The position numbers were made by a program. A stretch of DNA of 64,000 bases from Octopus vulgaris (lineage: Eukaryota): NCBI GenBank assembly GCA_951406725.2, contig OX597821.1, positions 17,980,001 to 18,044,000 on the forward strand, in the 5' to 3' direction. Below, one piece after another: positions 36,001-54,000 of the stretch; the first letter of the stretch is position 1; the number at the start of each line of letters is the position of its first letter.

Positions 36001-39000
36001 GTAACTTCTGTTTACTTTTTGTGTATGTATATATACGTCTTTGGATGGGCAGACATATATTTTAATTTATGATTTTAGTGGATATGAATACTATCCTATT
36101 TCGCGAAAATATTAGGTGTTGAGTTATTTATTACCCCGTGCGCCTAAGCGGAAGCAGGATATTGTAATCACTCGTCTTTGTCTGTTTGCATGTTTGCAAA
36201 ATTACTAGAAAATGGCTGAACATTTGACAAAAATACTCATTGAGGGAGTGGCTCGAAATGATGAACATTTGGTTTGATTATCTTTAAAAAAACTTAAATT
36301 AAATTAAATTAAAAAATCGGACTTATAAATTTCCCGATGAGCAAGTGGACTTGTTATTTTGTTACCTGTCTTTATTATATGAATTGATCTTCGTCTGTGT
36401 GTGTATAGATCATGGTGTACCTATGTGCGTAGACACGTGTGCATACATACATATGCGATTGTGAGTGTACGTGTGTGTGTGCGTGCGCGTACGTGCGTGT
36501 ATGTGTGTGCGTATGTGTGTGTATGTGTGTGTGTGCGTGTGTGTGTGTACAGTGATGTGTTCGAGGGTTTCGTTTATTTACGACTTGATGTCTTAATTTC
36601 ACCGGAGTACAAATATCTATAATGATGATACTTCAAAAAAAAAATAATTAATTCAGTTCAATTAAAATGCATGGGTGAGCAACACATTGTAAGCCACAAT
36701 ATAATTTGCGAAAAAATTTATCTGCGCGCAGGATACTCATCGATCCTCCGATGCCTTTTTTATATACCATGTTATATCTTCTATGCATGGTATGCACATT
36801 AACAGCAATGACCAACCATTTTTTGTTTATTTATTTGTTTATTTATTGTATGTCAATATTCGATATATTTCAAGATTTATTGCCAATATAGAAAGAGTTG
36901 GGTTCTAGTCAAGATCCAAGGCTCCTTCATTGGAATTTCAACAACATCACTAGGATATTTTTGCATGTGTGTGTATATGTGCGGTATTTGGTGTCAGTGC
37001 ATGTGCAGATTTGTATGTTCTGTTTAATGCATTTATTCTCATGCATATATTTGTATGCCTAGATATGCGCATATATATAAACTTCCGGAAAGTGTCATAA
37101 ATTTTTAGTTCTAGTGACGGCTTGGATTTATAGTATTCGAATCAGATTTCTTCTTCCCGGTTTTGAGAAGCTTAATTTTTCTCCAAATTGGTACCGAGAC
37201 AATGTGTTAAATATCCCAGTGTCCCGTTAATGACAGGTATATGCTTGAACTTGTAATCTTGGTAGAGTAGCAGCAGATTTCTCAATAGCTCAATAACTTT
37301 TTTTTTCCCTGGCGCCTAGCCTCATGTTAACATCCGTTAGGCAGCTAATTTCCACTACTGTACATAATTTTGCTCCTCAGTCTGCTCAGGCGCAGGAGTG
37401 GCTGTGTGGTAAGTAGCTTGTTTACCAACCACATGGTTCCGGATTCAGTCCCACTGCCTGGCACCTTGGGCAAGTGTCTTCTGCTATAGCCTCGGGACGA
37501 CCAAAGCCTTGTGAGTGGATTTGGTAGACGGAAACTGAAAGAAGCCCGTCGTATATATTATATATATATATATATATATATATATATATATATATATATA
37601 TATATATATATATATATATATATATGCGTGTGTGTGTTTGTGTCTGTGTGTTTGTCCCGCTAGCATTGCTTGACAACCGATGCTGGTGTGTTTATGTCCC
37701 CGTTACTTAGCGGTTCGGCAAAAGAGACCGATAGAATAAGTACTGGGCTTACAAAAGAATAAGTCCCGGGTCGAGTGGCTCGATTAAAGGCGATGCTCCA
37801 GCATGGCCGCAGTCAAATGACTGAAACAAGTAAAAGAGTAAAAGAGTCTTAAATCACTATGTCAGGTCTATAATGTTTACATTTAATTGAGGTTTTCTCT
37901 ACAACCTTCACCGAAACATTCACTGGAGCGTTATGTGTGGCTATGGCCGCTACCACACTATGGGTTCTTATTTTTTGGGCCTCGGAGTTATCCTTCCGAC
38001 GTATCTCTTTACACAGTGACTTGACTACATCATGCCTCATCAGTAGATAATATCGCGATAACAATTTTAGATAGATGTCTATGATGTGGGTGATATCTTC
38101 GGCGTGAACTCCACAAAGTCTACATTGGTTCTCACATTTTAGTGCTTTTCCTGCATCTGCGTCCCTTCTCTGCATCAGGTATTTGGTTGGTGTTGTGGAA
38201 GGATCCTGACCACCTCCACATGCCAGAGAGTGGACTAACGCATTTCAAAAATTTAAGAAACTGTGTGAATTGTCGGTAGTTGACAGTCAGCAGTAGAAAG
38301 CGTGTAGTTGACAGCATTGATCGTTCGTATTGGATTACTATGTCAGTTTAATATCGTACCTACGTTGGGCGTTGTACGGAGCACGTTCTGTGTGAATATA
38401 TTAATTCTACGAAAGGTTATTCTAATAACCATATCTAAATATTTATTTGGGTAATATGGCGACGAGATATTCAAGCCCCCGAAGACATAACACTTGGTAT
38501 TTTCTGTTCCCGGATGGCAAACACATTCCTTTCAAAGTAGGAATTAGCAGGCTGTTGTTGGTCCATGATACACTGCTTTCGTCATCAATGTTATTACCAT
38601 CCCAGAACGTTCTGTTATCCACATACATGTAAGTATGTATGTATGTATATATATATGTATGTATTATGTATGTATGTATGTGCGTATGTGTTTGTGTGTG
38701 TATGCATATATATATATATATATATATATATATATATATATACATTTTATAATTAAGGGCTAAAGAAGGTTAATTCTAAAGCCAATACACTGATTTATCA
38801 ATTTATAATCCACTTGTTACAGAAAAATTGAACTGTAACAAGTGGATTATAAGTGGATAAATCAGTGTATTGGCTTTAGAATAACCTTCTTTAGCTCTTA
38901 ATTATAAAATGTTTATACTTCAACCGTAAAGGTTTTTTTAATATACTGCCACGCTTTCTGATGGAATCCTTTTCTGTAGAGAAAGGGACTTCATCCTATA

Positions 39001-51000: not shown

Positions 51001-54000
51001 TGATAGCATTCATGTATCAAGCTTATGCGACAGTTGAACCAGAAAGGTTACATGAAAGCGTTTCTTCATAGAAGATATCATATGGATGGATGGAAGCACT
51101 CCGTCGGTTACGACGACGAGGGTTCCGGTTGATCCGATCAACGGAACAGCCTGCTCGTGAAATTAACGTGTAAGTGGCTGAGCATTCCACAGACACGTGC
51201 ACCCTTAACGTAGTTCTCGGGGATATTCAGCGTGACACAGAGAGTGACAAGGCCGGCCCTTTGAAATACAGGTACAACAGAAACAGGAAGTAAGAATGAG
51301 AGAAAGTTGTGGTGAAAGAGTACACCAGGGATCACCACCATCCCCTGTCGGAGCCTCGTGGAGCTTTAGGTGTTTTCGCTCAATAAACATTCACAACGCC
51401 CGGTCTGGGAATCGAAACCGCGATCCTACGACCGCGAGTCCGCTACCCTAACCACTGGGCCATTGCGCCTCCACAGTTGAACCAGAAAGGTTACATGAAA
51501 GCGTTTCTTCATAGAAGATATCATATGACAGCTCGTAAAGAGAGGTATGAATATTATTCTATCGAAGAATAATGTTATCAAGTAGTGTTAGTTCCCTTCC
51601 ATAGGACATGTTAAAACATATCCCTTCTTTGTTAATAGGCGCTGTGTGGTAAGTAGCTTGCTTACCAACCACTTGGTCTCGGGTTCGGTTCCACTGCGTG
51701 GCACCTTGGACAAGTGTCTTCTGCTATAGCCACGGGCCGAACAAAACCTATTGAGAGGATTTGGTAGATGGAAACTGAAAGAAGCCGTCGTAAATGTATA
51801 CATATATATATATATATATATGCATGTGTATATGTTTGTGTGTCTATGTTTGTCCTCACAACAACGCTTGACAACTGATGTTGGTGTGTTTAAGTCCCCG
51901 TAATTTAGCGGTTTAGCAAAAGTGACCGATAGAATAAATACTAGGCTGACAAAAAATAAGTCCTGGGGTCAATTTGCTCGACAAAAGGCGGTGCTCCAGC
52001 ATGGCCGCAGTCAAAATGACTAAAACAAGTAACAAAATAAAAGAAGAAAAATGTAGAGAAAGGAAGATAAAGTAAATAAAATAAATGATTGCTGCTACAT
52101 ATTTTTTTTTTTCAGAACGACCCCAAGTAGACATTGTACAATAGTGGATTCTAAGGAAAAGGAGAATCGTGTTTTTTTTATAGCCTGTTCAGTAGGGGCT
52201 TTAAAAAACTAACTTCCCTTATTAATTCTAGTCTGGAGTATCGTTACACATTCATAGAATGAAAAGACAAGATATTTGAAACAGCGCAAAACAGTGATGT
52301 AAAATAAACAAACTTTAGGTTAGTTAAAATATATTGTGACATATTTCAACTAAATAAAGATTGACTGCAGCTACCGTGGAGAAAAAAGTTTTCGATTTTA
52401 CCATAAGCGAGAAATTTTCCTATATGGCAACTATAGTGAATCTGTCTTTAGAAATTGAAATATGTTCCAAACATATTTTAGCTAACCTAAAGTTCATATA
52501 TATATATATATATGTGTGTATATATATATATATGTGTGTGTGTGTGTGTATATATATATATATATATATATATATATAGTATATATACGTATATATATAT
52601 ATATATATATATATATATACACGTATATATATATATATACATATATATACGTATATATATATGCATATATATATATATGTATATATATATATATATATGT
52701 GTGTATATATATATATGTGTGTATGTGTATATATATATGTATATATATATATGCATATGTATATATATATATATATATATATATATATATATATATATAT
52801 ACCGGAGTAAACACATAAATGTGAAACAAGGTGGAAAAAAGAGTACTCAAATACCAGTGGTAGGGTAATATGCTTTATTTAAAAGCAGCAGAAAATTCAA
52901 CAAAACATGTTACTCTGAGTTTCACGTTCCCGTTCGTCGGACAGTTTTTTTGAAAAATTCAACAAAACCTGTTACTCTGAGTTTCACGTTCCCGTTCGTC
53001 GGACAGTTTTTGCTAGCAAAAAAACTGTCCGACGAACGGGAACGTGAAACTCAGAGTAACAGGTTTTGTTGAATTTTCTGCTGCTTTTGAATAAAGTATA
53101 TATATATATATAGGTGGTGCTATTAAGTTAGACATGGCCTGGGCCAATAATGGCCGAAACCTATCAAAGTATCAAAGTATATATATATATATATATATAC
53201 ATATATATATATATATATGTACGTCCCGGGTTGAGTCGGGGTTAACCACAGTAAATAAGGTACTCAATACATAGCAGAGTAAATTAATTTATTTTATTTT
53301 ATAGAAGGAGCTTCTACAGGACTAGAACTGTTTCATTCAAAAGAAATCATCAGAGCTTCCTGATGATTTCTTTTGAATGAAACAGTTCTAGTCCTGTAGA
53401 AGCTCCTTCTATAAAATAAAATATATATATATATATATATATATATATATATATATATATATATATATATATATATATATAATTGAAACTAAACATTTGT
53501 GTTAATTGTTTAAAGTAAATTTTGGCAATCCTATTTTAATATAAGAATAGAACGGAAATACGTGCCAGTTAAGAATACAAAGTTACAGAAATTAGTTATA
53601 TTCTCAGTTTCAGTTACAAACCCTTGACGTGAGCTAAACTCATTGTCCTCTTAACTTTGCGACGTTAAGTATCTCTCTTCATCTATCAATTTATCCATAC
53701 TCATAAGTTGTCGAGCTGGCAGAAACGTTAGCACGCCGGGCGAAATGCTTATTTCGTCTGTCTTTATGTTCTGAGCTCAAATTCTACCGAGGTCGAGTTT
53801 GCTTTTCACCCTTCGGTGTCGATAAATTAAGTACTAGTTGCGTACTGGGGTCGATCTAATCGACTTGTCCCTCTCCGAAAACTTCGGGCCTTGTGCCTAG
53901 AGTAGAAAAGCATTTATGCATACTCAAACGGCAATAAAATACAAGTACTTGGATTATATTGTCGCTTGTTTTCCTTACCAATAGAAGCCCATATTCTTCC

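What the first reader, a model, noticed from the sequence alone, without database searches (positions are those of the whole stretch)
38742..53423. One fold-back-plus-tail architecture recurs across three repeat families and a ~50-fold size range
Seen: 38742-39010, 39065-39373, 52801-53098, 53219-53423 and the 9.4-kb element all read (TA)n - inverted arm - 0-31-nt spacer - arm - 70-100-nt unpaired tail - (TA)n. 53219-53423 is the same family as the giant palindrome, with the inverted arm ending at the same point before the tail. 39065 and 52801 also share their arm/tail boundary. Inference: a stereotyped integration route in which cDNA of variable length snaps back and copying stops at a fixed AT-rich site. 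This would make hairpins that look like MITEs but come from reverse transcription. It also argues the giant palindrome is biological.
Basis: partly seen in the sequence, partly recalled or inferred. Interest (0 to 1): 0.72.

Follow-up and report, generated by a model that had tools for sequence, protein, structure and literature searches.

The report
Penelope-like retroelement fold-back insertions in TA repeats
The hairpin-plus-tail elements are real, but they show the already described insertion signature of Penelope-like retrotransposons, so this is a good local example of a known phenomenon and not a new kind of element.

Summary
Four small elements and one 9.4-kb palindrome all read (TA)n, inverted arm, short spacer, arm, one-sided 69-99-nt tail, (TA)n. 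Within a family the arm/tail boundary is constant, while arm length runs from 61 nt to 4.66 kb.

The arms of the palindrome encode a 5'-truncated reverse transcriptase followed by a C-terminal GIY-YIG-type endonuclease. [quoted passage not shown] The published hallmark of PLE insertions is a head-to-head inverted 5'-truncated copy, a one-sided "tail", and a preference for (TA)n targets (PMC8557442, PMC3846280). In vitro work places the tail between two fixed internal start sites of reverse transcription, and shows that both target strands are cut and extended (PMC11167929).

So the retro-origin and the biological reality of the palindrome are supported. "Copying stops at a fixed AT-rich site" is better read as "copying starts at fixed sites". 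Family B/C is a distant relative of D/G. Family A is linked by architecture only.

The parts
7435..7479 (.). (TA)n tract flanking the giant element on the left
7478..12133 (-). Giant element, tail-less (antisense) arm: inverted copy of a 5'-truncated PLE
   Evidence: tblastn pieces on the minus strand with several frame breaks
7495..7545 (-). Hammerhead-like motif in the tail-less arm (mirror of 16783-16833)
   Evidence: core pattern match at 7517-7539
12134..12164 (.). 31-nt spacer at the head-to-head junction; weakly reads as a continuation of the left (tail-less) arm
12165..16850 (+). Giant element, sense arm: RT from about residue 250 of a roughly 710-aa protein, then endonuclease, then 3.3 kb of mostly microsatellite, then the hammerhead region
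12167..12928 (+). RT fragment (253 aa, contains YRDDG)
   Evidence: 28 homologues, best E 1e-78 at 55% identity; family profile against the window's canonical PLE RT, hhalign E 4.5e-6
12886..13563 (+). Linker (CxCX5C) and GIY-YIG-like endonuclease fragment, one frameshift away from the RT frame
   Evidence: Pfam silent
16783..16833 (+). Hammerhead-like motif: helix I 6 bp, CUGAAGA, short helix II, GAA, 4-bp helix III, cleavage after A
   Evidence: same layout as the Hydra-clade hammerheads tabulated in the supplement of PMC8557442; Rfam silent
16851..16919 (+). 69-nt tail of the giant element
16920..16962 (.). (AT)n tract flanking the giant element on the right
34011..34056 (+). Solo 46-nt fragment of family B/C with no tail and no inverted arm, ending exactly at the arm/tail boundary, between two (TA)n tracts
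38743..39010 (+). Element A: arms 38743-38823 and 38832-38911, spacer 8 nt, tail 38912-39010
39067..39373 (+). Element B: arms 39067-39181 and 39188-39301, spacer 6 nt, tail 39302-39373
52802..53098 (-). Element C: tail 52802-52872, tail-side arm 52873-53013 with a 62-nt tandem duplication, centre 53014-53017, tail-less arm 53018-53098
53219..53421 (-). Element D: tail 53219-53291, tail-side arm to 53353, spacer 53354-53359, tail-less arm 53360-53421; hammerhead core in both arms

Best explanation
These are insertion products of Penelope-like retrotransposons (PLEs) that target (TA)n microsatellites.

Shown: the giant element and D belong to one family of the Hydra clade of PLEs. B, C and the solo fragment at 34011 belong to a diverged relative or non-autonomous partner that shares the terminal roughly 150 nt. 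A is assigned by architecture only.

Likely mechanism, inferred from the literature plus the anatomy here:
1. The element's endonuclease cuts both strands of a TA tract.
2. Reverse transcription starts on the element RNA at one of two fixed internal sites. One strand starts at the distal site, which gives arm plus tail. The other starts at the proximal site, which gives an arm that ends at the boundary.
3. Both cDNAs run to about the same variable 5' point.
4. The two antisense cDNAs, or one cDNA folded on itself, serve as templates for each other across a short or palindromic junction. This produces a head-to-head inverted duplication of any length with a tail on one side only.
For: Protein identity:
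- The right arm aligns with residues of about 248-710 of 713-aa homologues. There are 28 homologues, best E 1e-78.
- The consensus of 18 homologues carries RWK, DKT, CxCX5C, YIG without the CCHH cysteines, and CxxC and CxH around the conserved E and N.
- The window copy itself shows CxCX5C, a single Cys before YIG, CxxC and CxH. These are the features listed for Hydra in PMC8557442 section 11.
- The family profile aligns collinearly over 408 columns with the window's own Pfam-confirmed PLE RT: hhalign probability 86.6%, E 4.5e-6.

Hammerhead:
- The published core descriptor gives 5 matches in the window against 1.0 expected, and 0 of 100 shuffles reached 5. Four of the 5 lie in the D and giant arms.
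- The minimum-energy fold shows the three helices.

Architecture:
- The literature describes 5' truncation, an adjacent inverted 5'-truncated copy, a one-sided tail and a (TA)n bias (PMC8557442, passages; PMC3846280, passages).
- The tail lies between two internal RT start sites, and both strands are cleaved and extended by a predicted dimer (PMC11167929, parts 1-2 of 4).

Local anatomy:
- The boundary and the tail end are fixed within a family.
- The solo fragment ends at the boundary.
- In all 5 elements the two arms end within 31 nt of each other.
- Tail homology B/C against D/G: B-D score 39 against 18.2 +/- 3.5, reached by 0 of 500 shuffles. With the arm included: B-G, B-D, C-D and C-G each reached by 0 of 500.
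Against: - Pfam finds no RT or GIY-YIG domain in the window ORFs or in 4 homologues.
- The endonuclease profile match to the canonical PLE endonuclease is weak: E 0.0066, probability 5.7%.
- Rfam reports no hammerhead at gathering score or at E up to 10.
- The hammerhead fold is no more stable than shuffles: z -0.26, with 68 of 200 shuffles folding at least as well.
- No pseudo-LTR is seen.
- The tails are 69-99 nt, against 30-40 bp in the literature.
- Family A has no significant similarity to the others (A-D reached by 174 of 500 shuffles, A-G by 20 of 500) and no hammerhead core.
- The mechanism steps were established for a Poseidon-clade element from a lizard, not for Hydra-clade elements.
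- There are only five insertions, and no genome-wide census was possible.
Confidence: 0.8

Rival explanations
1. A single first-strand cDNA starts at the outer end of the tail, runs a variable distance, snaps back on itself, and the return copy stops at a fixed AT-rich site before the tail.
For: The arms are symmetric in 5 of 5 elements, with spacers of 31 nt or less. Short palindromes or 2-nt microhomologies sit at the centres. The boundaries are AT-rich. Self-priming has been proposed for PLEs (PMC3846280).
Against: In D the spacer reads as the continuation of the tail-less arm: 6 of 6 bases match the giant copy's sequence upstream of the hammerhead core, whereas the tail-side reading needs an indel. 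In the giant copy the same polarity is weakly favoured. The solo fragment ends at the boundary without any fold-back, so the boundary is a terminus in its own right. In vitro, the tail is bounded by two start sites. No reason is known for a polymerase to stop there.
Confidence: 0.12
2. The small hairpins are MITEs or foldback DNA transposons with TA target duplications. The giant palindrome is unrelated to them.
For: Long inverted arms and TA flanks. Rfam scores them as miRNA-like hairpins below threshold.
Against: One end carries a 69-99-nt unpaired tail, so the termini are not inverted repeats. B and C, and D and the giant copy, share outer boundaries but differ symmetrically at the centre. 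D shares sequence with a copy that encodes RT and endonuclease. No transposase was found.
Confidence: 0.03
3. The 9.4-kb palindrome is an assembly or long-read fold-back artefact.
For: Near-identical arms. Several single-base indels in homopolymers that break the reading frame in the left arm.
Against: It has unique flanks on both sides and (TA)n at both ends. Its tail and boundary are the same as in the 203-nt copy D. The arms differ at 116 of 4711 aligned columns, including microsatellite length changes. PLE palindromes are documented, although PLE inverted structures are also known to trouble assemblies.
Confidence: 0.05
4. The inverted duplications arose after ordinary insertion, by replication template switching or hairpin repair at unstable TA microsatellites.
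For: TA tracts are fragile and form cruciforms. The arms of the giant copy are young.
Against: Five independent loci in three sequence families would all have to end the duplicated arm at the family-specific boundary and leave out the tail.
Confidence: 0.04

Closest known systems
Hydra clade of Penelope-like elements (Craig et al. 2021, PMC8557442), including Hydra-1_Obim listed in its supplement
   Same: C-terminal endonuclease; CxCX5C linker; no CCHH; CxxC and CxH motifs; hammerhead near the 3' end with the same helix layout; insertion into (TA)n. The supplement notes 'no pLTR' for the octopus family.
   Different: The hammerhead sequence differs from every Hydra entry shown in the passage returned, so this is another family. 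A 28-nt tail string found no match in the supplement. The copy here has 3.3 kb of microsatellite between the endonuclease and the hammerhead, whereas Hydra elements are described as shorter than 3 kb. No phylogeny was built.
Canonical PLE insertion architecture (for example Pen2a_Av of Adineta vaga, PMC3846280; Fig. 2 of PMC8557442)
   Same: Head-to-head inverted copy, palindrome at the junction, optional one-sided tail, AT-rich target, 5' truncation.
   Different: There the inverted piece is usually a pseudo-LTR of about 200 bp next to a full copy, and the tail is 30-40 bp. Here the whole truncated copy is duplicated (61 nt to 4.66 kb), no pseudo-LTR is seen, and the tails are 69-99 nt.
Poseidon element PAc of Anolis carolinensis, in vitro (PMC11167929)
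   Same: Offers a mechanism for the tail (two internal RT start sites) and for two-sided priming (both strands cut and extended). AT-rich cleavage.
   Different: Different clade. Nothing was tested for this family. The paper does not explain how inverted copies are completed.
Non-autonomous PLE derivatives and animal retrozymes (PMC8557442, Chlamys passage; bioRxiv 10.64898/2026.07.22.740005, abstract only)
   Same: Short non-coding copies that share the 3'-terminal cis region with an autonomous PLE, as B/C does with D/G.
   Different: Retrozymes are tandem hammerhead repeats. B/C lacks a hammerhead core and is a fold-back.
L1 5' inversions by twin priming (recalled, not read here)
   Same: Both target strands prime cDNA synthesis, giving an inverted segment.
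   Different: Twin priming inverts a different part of the element and does not duplicate it. Here both arms are the same sequence.
MITEs (Stowaway/Tourist type; recalled)
   Same: 200-300-bp hairpin-forming repeats next to TA.
   Different: Asymmetric tail, variable centre, RT-encoding relative.

Membership tests
Penelope-like elements | Reverse transcriptase of the PLE type | tested here: met
   Profile of 18 homologues against the window's Pfam-confirmed PLE RT: hhalign probability 86.6%, E 4.5e-6, 408 collinear columns including DKT/DKG, motif A, YRDDG/YLDDC and SNHP. Pfam itself is silent.
Penelope-like elements | GIY-YIG endonuclease fused to the RT | tested here: inconclusive
   VY...YIG motifs lie C-terminal to the RT. 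One homologue is named a GIY-YIG endonuclease by its source. Pfam gives no hit. hhalign to the canonical PLE endonuclease gives E 0.0066, probability 5.7%.
Penelope-like elements | 5'-truncated copies with an adjacent inverted 5'-truncated copy (head-to-head) | tested here: met
   5 of 5 elements.
Penelope-like elements | Optional short extension ('tail') at one end only | tested here: met
   Present once in each of 5 elements and absent from the solo fragment. Length is 69-99 nt, against the published 30-40 bp.
Penelope-like elements | Pseudo-LTR or partial tandem | tested here: inconclusive
   The only partial tandem is a 62-nt one in C. No full-length copy is present to show a pseudo-LTR. 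The supplement of PMC8557442 lists 'no pLTR' for some cephalopod families.
Penelope-like elements | Hammerhead ribozyme motif near the end | tested here: met
   The published core descriptor matches in all 4 arms of D and the giant copy, and the helices are in place. Rfam is silent and the fold energy is not significant. There is no core in A, B or C.
Penelope-like elements | AT-rich or (TA)n target | tested here: met
   All 6 insertions are bounded by (TA)n on both sides.
Hydra clade of PLEs | CxCX5C linker; no CCHH inside the GIY-YIG core; CxxC and CxH around the conserved E and N | tested here: met
   All are read directly in the ORF at 12886-13563 and in the consensus of the homologues. 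The definition comes from PMC8557442 section 11.
Hydra clade of PLEs | N-terminal RWK motif and DKT in place of DKG | tested here: inconclusive
   The window copy lacks this region because it is 5'-truncated. The consensus of its 18 homologues has both motifs.
Hydra clade of PLEs | Placement inside the clade on an RT tree | not tested
   No reference Hydra proteins were available as session sequences.
MITE | Terminal inverted repeats that reach both ends; a fixed centre and length among copies | tested here: not met
   One end is an unpaired tail. B against C, and D against the giant copy, differ symmetrically at the centre.
MITE | Defined target site duplication | not testable with these tools
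   Insertion into (TA)n hides any duplication.
Helitron | 5' TC and 3' CTRR termini with a small 3' hairpin | tested here: not met
   The termini read do not fit. The definition is recalled.

The most novel reading that the evidence does not exclude
The series of arm lengths, together with the polarity of the spacer, may report a specific unsolved step of PLE integration. In this reading both target strands prime cDNA on the same RNA from the two internal start sites. The proximal (tail-less) cDNA leads. The distal (tail-bearing) one trails and ends a few to about 30 nt short. The two like-stranded cDNAs then copy each other across a short palindrome. This would explain why arms are symmetric at any length and why the tail is one-sided. 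It would also make 200-300-bp MITE-like hairpins a regular by-product of retrotransposition. The shared tail module of B/C and D/G would then be the cis element that lets a non-coding family borrow the Hydra-clade enzyme.
Probability: 0.2. Interest if true: 0.55.

Novelty: new member of a known kind. Interest (0 to 1): 0.3.

Why it matters
The window gives a compact natural series: one architecture, 61-nt to 4.66-kb arms, a tail-less solo end, and two related families sharing a tail. That series can be used to test models of the still unresolved completion step of PLE integration.

It is also a practical warning. Very short PLE fold-backs will be called MITEs or miRNA-like hairpins by automatic pipelines, and kilobase palindromes of this type should not be discarded as assembly errors.

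It does not reveal a new class of element.

Tried and rejected
- Rfam at gathering score over the whole window gave 0 matches. At E up to 10 over the elements it gave only sub-threshold miRNA-type hairpin hits, which I take as generic hairpin scoring. Rfam also missed a textbook-looking minimal hammerhead at 6169-6214, so its silence carries little weight.
- Pfam on the window ORFs and on homologues gave nothing useful. The VtrA_C and Cfap43 hits are below cut-off and were ignored.
- A profile search of solved structures gave nothing relevant.
- My first, strict hammerhead descriptor missed the D and giant motifs because helix II closes with a U-U pair. The published looser descriptor finds them.
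- I looked for a link from family A to any PLE by local alignment. None was significant.
- Helitron, MITE, twin-priming and assembly-artefact readings were considered and rejected (see the rival explanations and the membership test).
- Exact search of the supplement of PMC8557442 for a 28-nt tail string found no match.
- The literature searches listed no paper that describes 200-300-bp fold-back PLE copies as a class. The nearest is a remark on paired minimal hammerheads 100-700 bp apart on opposite strands (PMC4209133, part 1 of 4). This does not show that such a paper is absent from print.

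
Full report
WHAT IS THERE. The window is AT-rich, holds no N, and is dense in microsatellites. It contains 74 (TA)n tracts of at least 12 nt after merging.

The "9.4-kb element" is not inside the stated span. It lies at 7478-16919.

Oriented with the tail to the right, each element reads: (TA)n, antisense arm, spacer, sense arm, tail, (TA)n. 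The measurements are:
- A, 38743-39010: arms about 80 nt, spacer 8, tail 99.
- B, 39067-39373: arms 115-120 nt at 94%, spacer 6, tail 72.
- C, 52802-53098, reversed: tail 71, centre 0-4 nt, and a 62-nt tandem duplication in the tail-side arm.
- D, 53219-53421, reversed: arms 61-67 nt, spacer 6, tail 73.
- Giant element: arms 7478-12133 and 12165-16850, spacer 31, tail 69.

The self-inverted BLAST E-values run from 1e-59 to 1e-102. Of 26 TA-bounded segments examined, including these four, 4 have a fold-back that fills most of the segment.

BOUNDARIES. B and C share the tail, and their arms end at the same nucleotide. A third member of that family is a 46-nt solo fragment at 34011-34056 between two TA tracts. 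It has no tail and no inverted arm, and it ends on the same octamer. So the boundary is a terminus in its own right.

D and the giant element share the tail (135 nt at 90%). Their tail-less ends agree within about 3 nt, the uncertainty coming from the adjoining TA repeat.

By contrast the centres differ symmetrically. The arms of B run about 40 nt further inwards than those of C, on both sides. The arms of the giant copy run 4.6 kb further than those of D. This is what variable 5' truncation followed by duplication would give, and it is not what a MITE family shows.

WHAT THE GIANT ELEMENT ENCODES. The right arm carries a 253-aa frame and, after one frameshift, a 225-aa frame. The first frame finds 28 proteins of 448-953 aa, best E 1e-78 at 55% identity. 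One of them is named a GIY-YIG endonuclease by its source.

By tblastn the right arm covers residues of about 248-710 of a 713-aa homologue. The copy therefore lacks roughly the first 250 residues. The left arm gives the same pieces with more frame breaks.

Pfam recognises neither the window frames nor the homologues. A PDB profile search is empty. Identity therefore rests on two things.
- First, a profile of 18 homologues aligns collinearly over 408 columns with another element in this window, at 29009-32141 on the minus strand. That element does pass Pfam's RVT_1 and GIY-YIG cut-offs. The hhalign result is probability 86.6%, E 4.5e-6. The endonuclease alignment is weak (E 0.0066).
- Second, the motifs match. 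The consensus of the homologues has RWK, DKT, CxCX5C, YIG without the two core cysteines, and CxxC and CxH around the conserved E and N. The window copy shows the last four of these itself.

Section 11 of Craig et al. 2021, which I read whole, gives exactly these features as the hallmarks of the Hydra clade of PLEs. It adds that almost all Hydra families insert into (TA)n and carry hammerheads. The supplement lists a Hydra family and Naiad families from octopus species with a (TA)n preference.

I did not determine the organism of this window. My impression that its SINEs look cephalopod is recall only.

HAMMERHEAD. The core descriptor used in that paper (the CUGANGA core, 7-17 nt, then GAAA) matches 5 times in the window against 1.0 expected, and 0 of 100 shuffles reached 5. 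Four of the five matches are the two arms of D and the two arms of the giant copy.

Around the core, the sequence offers a 6-bp helix I, a weak 3-bp helix II and a 4-bp helix III, with cleavage after an A. The minimum-energy fold shows this three-way junction. The layout parallels the Hydra hammerheads tabulated in the supplement.

Against this, Rfam reports nothing, and the fold is no more stable than shuffles (z -0.26). A, B and C have no such core.

HOW THE FAMILIES RELATE. The tails of B/C and D/G are similar beyond chance:
- B-D: score 39 against 18.2 +/- 3.5, reached by 0 of 500 shuffles.
- B-G: reached by 1 of 500.
- C-D: reached by 2 of 500.
- C-G: reached by 5 of 500.

With the adjoining arm included, all four pairs are reached by 0 of 500 shuffles. 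B/C is thus a diverged relative of the last roughly 150 nt of the Hydra-type element. It could be a non-autonomous partner or the end of a sister family.

A shows no significant similarity to any of them (85 to 383 of 500 shuffles; 20 to 344 of 500). Only its architecture and its TA target link it to PLEs.

COMPARISON WITH WHAT IS KNOWN. The architecture is the published signature of PLE insertions.
- Craig et al. [quoted passage not shown]
- Arkhipova et al. 2013 (passages) describe the tail as optional. [quoted passage not shown]
- Frangieh et al. 2024 (parts 1-2 of 4) show for a lizard Poseidon element that the protein is predicted to be a dimer, and that it cleaves AT-rich DNA and extends both strands. 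Reverse transcription starts at two adjacent internal sites of the RNA. The genomic tail is the stretch between those sites.
- A curation guide repeats the inverted pseudo-LTRs and 3' extensions as routine features.

MECHANISM. Read against that work, the fixed outer end of the tail and the fixed boundary are the two start sites. The solo fragment is an insertion begun at the proximal site. The one-sided tail arises when the two target strands prime at different sites. This part is inference by analogy with another clade.

The step that makes the arms equal is unsolved in the literature. The window adds one constraint. In D, the 6-nt spacer is the exact continuation of the tail-less arm when the giant copy is used as the family reference, while the tail-side reading needs an indel. 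In the giant copy, the 31-nt spacer read as a continuation of the tail-less arm keeps the frame open for 8 codons. It also places an Ile at the conserved distance before the motif-A Phe. Read the other way, it gives an immediate stop. The evidence from the giant copy is weak.

So in 2 of 2 testable cases, one clear and one weak, the tail-less arm is the longer one. A cDNA that starts in the tail, snaps back and stops at the boundary predicts the opposite.

A scheme that fits is two cDNAs on one RNA. The proximal one leads and the distal one stops just behind it. They then copy each other across short palindromes, which are indeed present at the centres of B, C and D. This scheme is my inference and is untested.

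THE PALINDROME IS REAL. It has unique flanks, TA tracts at both ends, and the same boundary and tail as D. Its arms differ at 116 of 4711 aligned columns, mostly microsatellite length changes and homopolymer indels. Some of the single-base indels may be sequencing errors.

VERDICT. The elements are new members of a known kind. Supplementary figures S2, S7 and S8 of PMC8557442 were not seen as figures. They could refine the clade assignment.

Noticed in passing
window 29009-32141 (minus strand), hairpin 32250-32456: A second, canonical-type PLE: Pfam RVT_1 and GIY-YIG above cut-off, DKG motif, CX5CxxC linker. A 100-nt, 79%-complementary hairpin sits at its 5' side next to (AAG)n and (TA)n. This may be another head-to-head fold-back with a short return arm.
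   Followed up: partly
window 6169-6214 (minus strand): A minimal hammerhead-like motif with a 6-bp helix II, a 5-bp helix I and no helix III, next to (ATT)n at 6266-6492. It was the only hit of a strict descriptor (shuffle mean 0.04). Rfam is silent. Probably a remnant of another PLE end.
   Followed up: partly
window 37388-37845 (+), 43749-44414 (-), 51641-52045 (+): A tRNA-like SINE family that carries an internal (TA)n tract. One copy has an internal partial duplication. Such SINEs could seed the TA targets that the PLEs use.
   Followed up: partly
   Followed up: partly
window 13564-16782 and its mirror 7546-10738: About 3.3 kb between the endonuclease stop and the hammerhead region is mostly TATACA/ATAC-type microsatellite, present in both arms. 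It is unusually long for an element family described as shorter than 3 kb.
   Followed up: no
window 5005-5431; also 53712-53866, 54452-54614, 56552-56719: A 184-nt repeat in 2.3 tandem copies, with dispersed and inverted copies elsewhere. It looks like SINE-type material.
   Followed up: no
window 53113-53177: A 65-nt unique segment bounded by TA tracts between elements C and D. It has no inverted repeat and no other copy in the window. Its origin is unknown.
   Followed up: no
arm/tail boundaries: about 38900-38912, 39290-39302, 16838-16851, 53291-53305: Each boundary sits in a TATA-box-like or AATAAA-like AT-rich stretch. [quoted passage not shown] Whether this is signal or base composition was not tested.
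   Followed up: no
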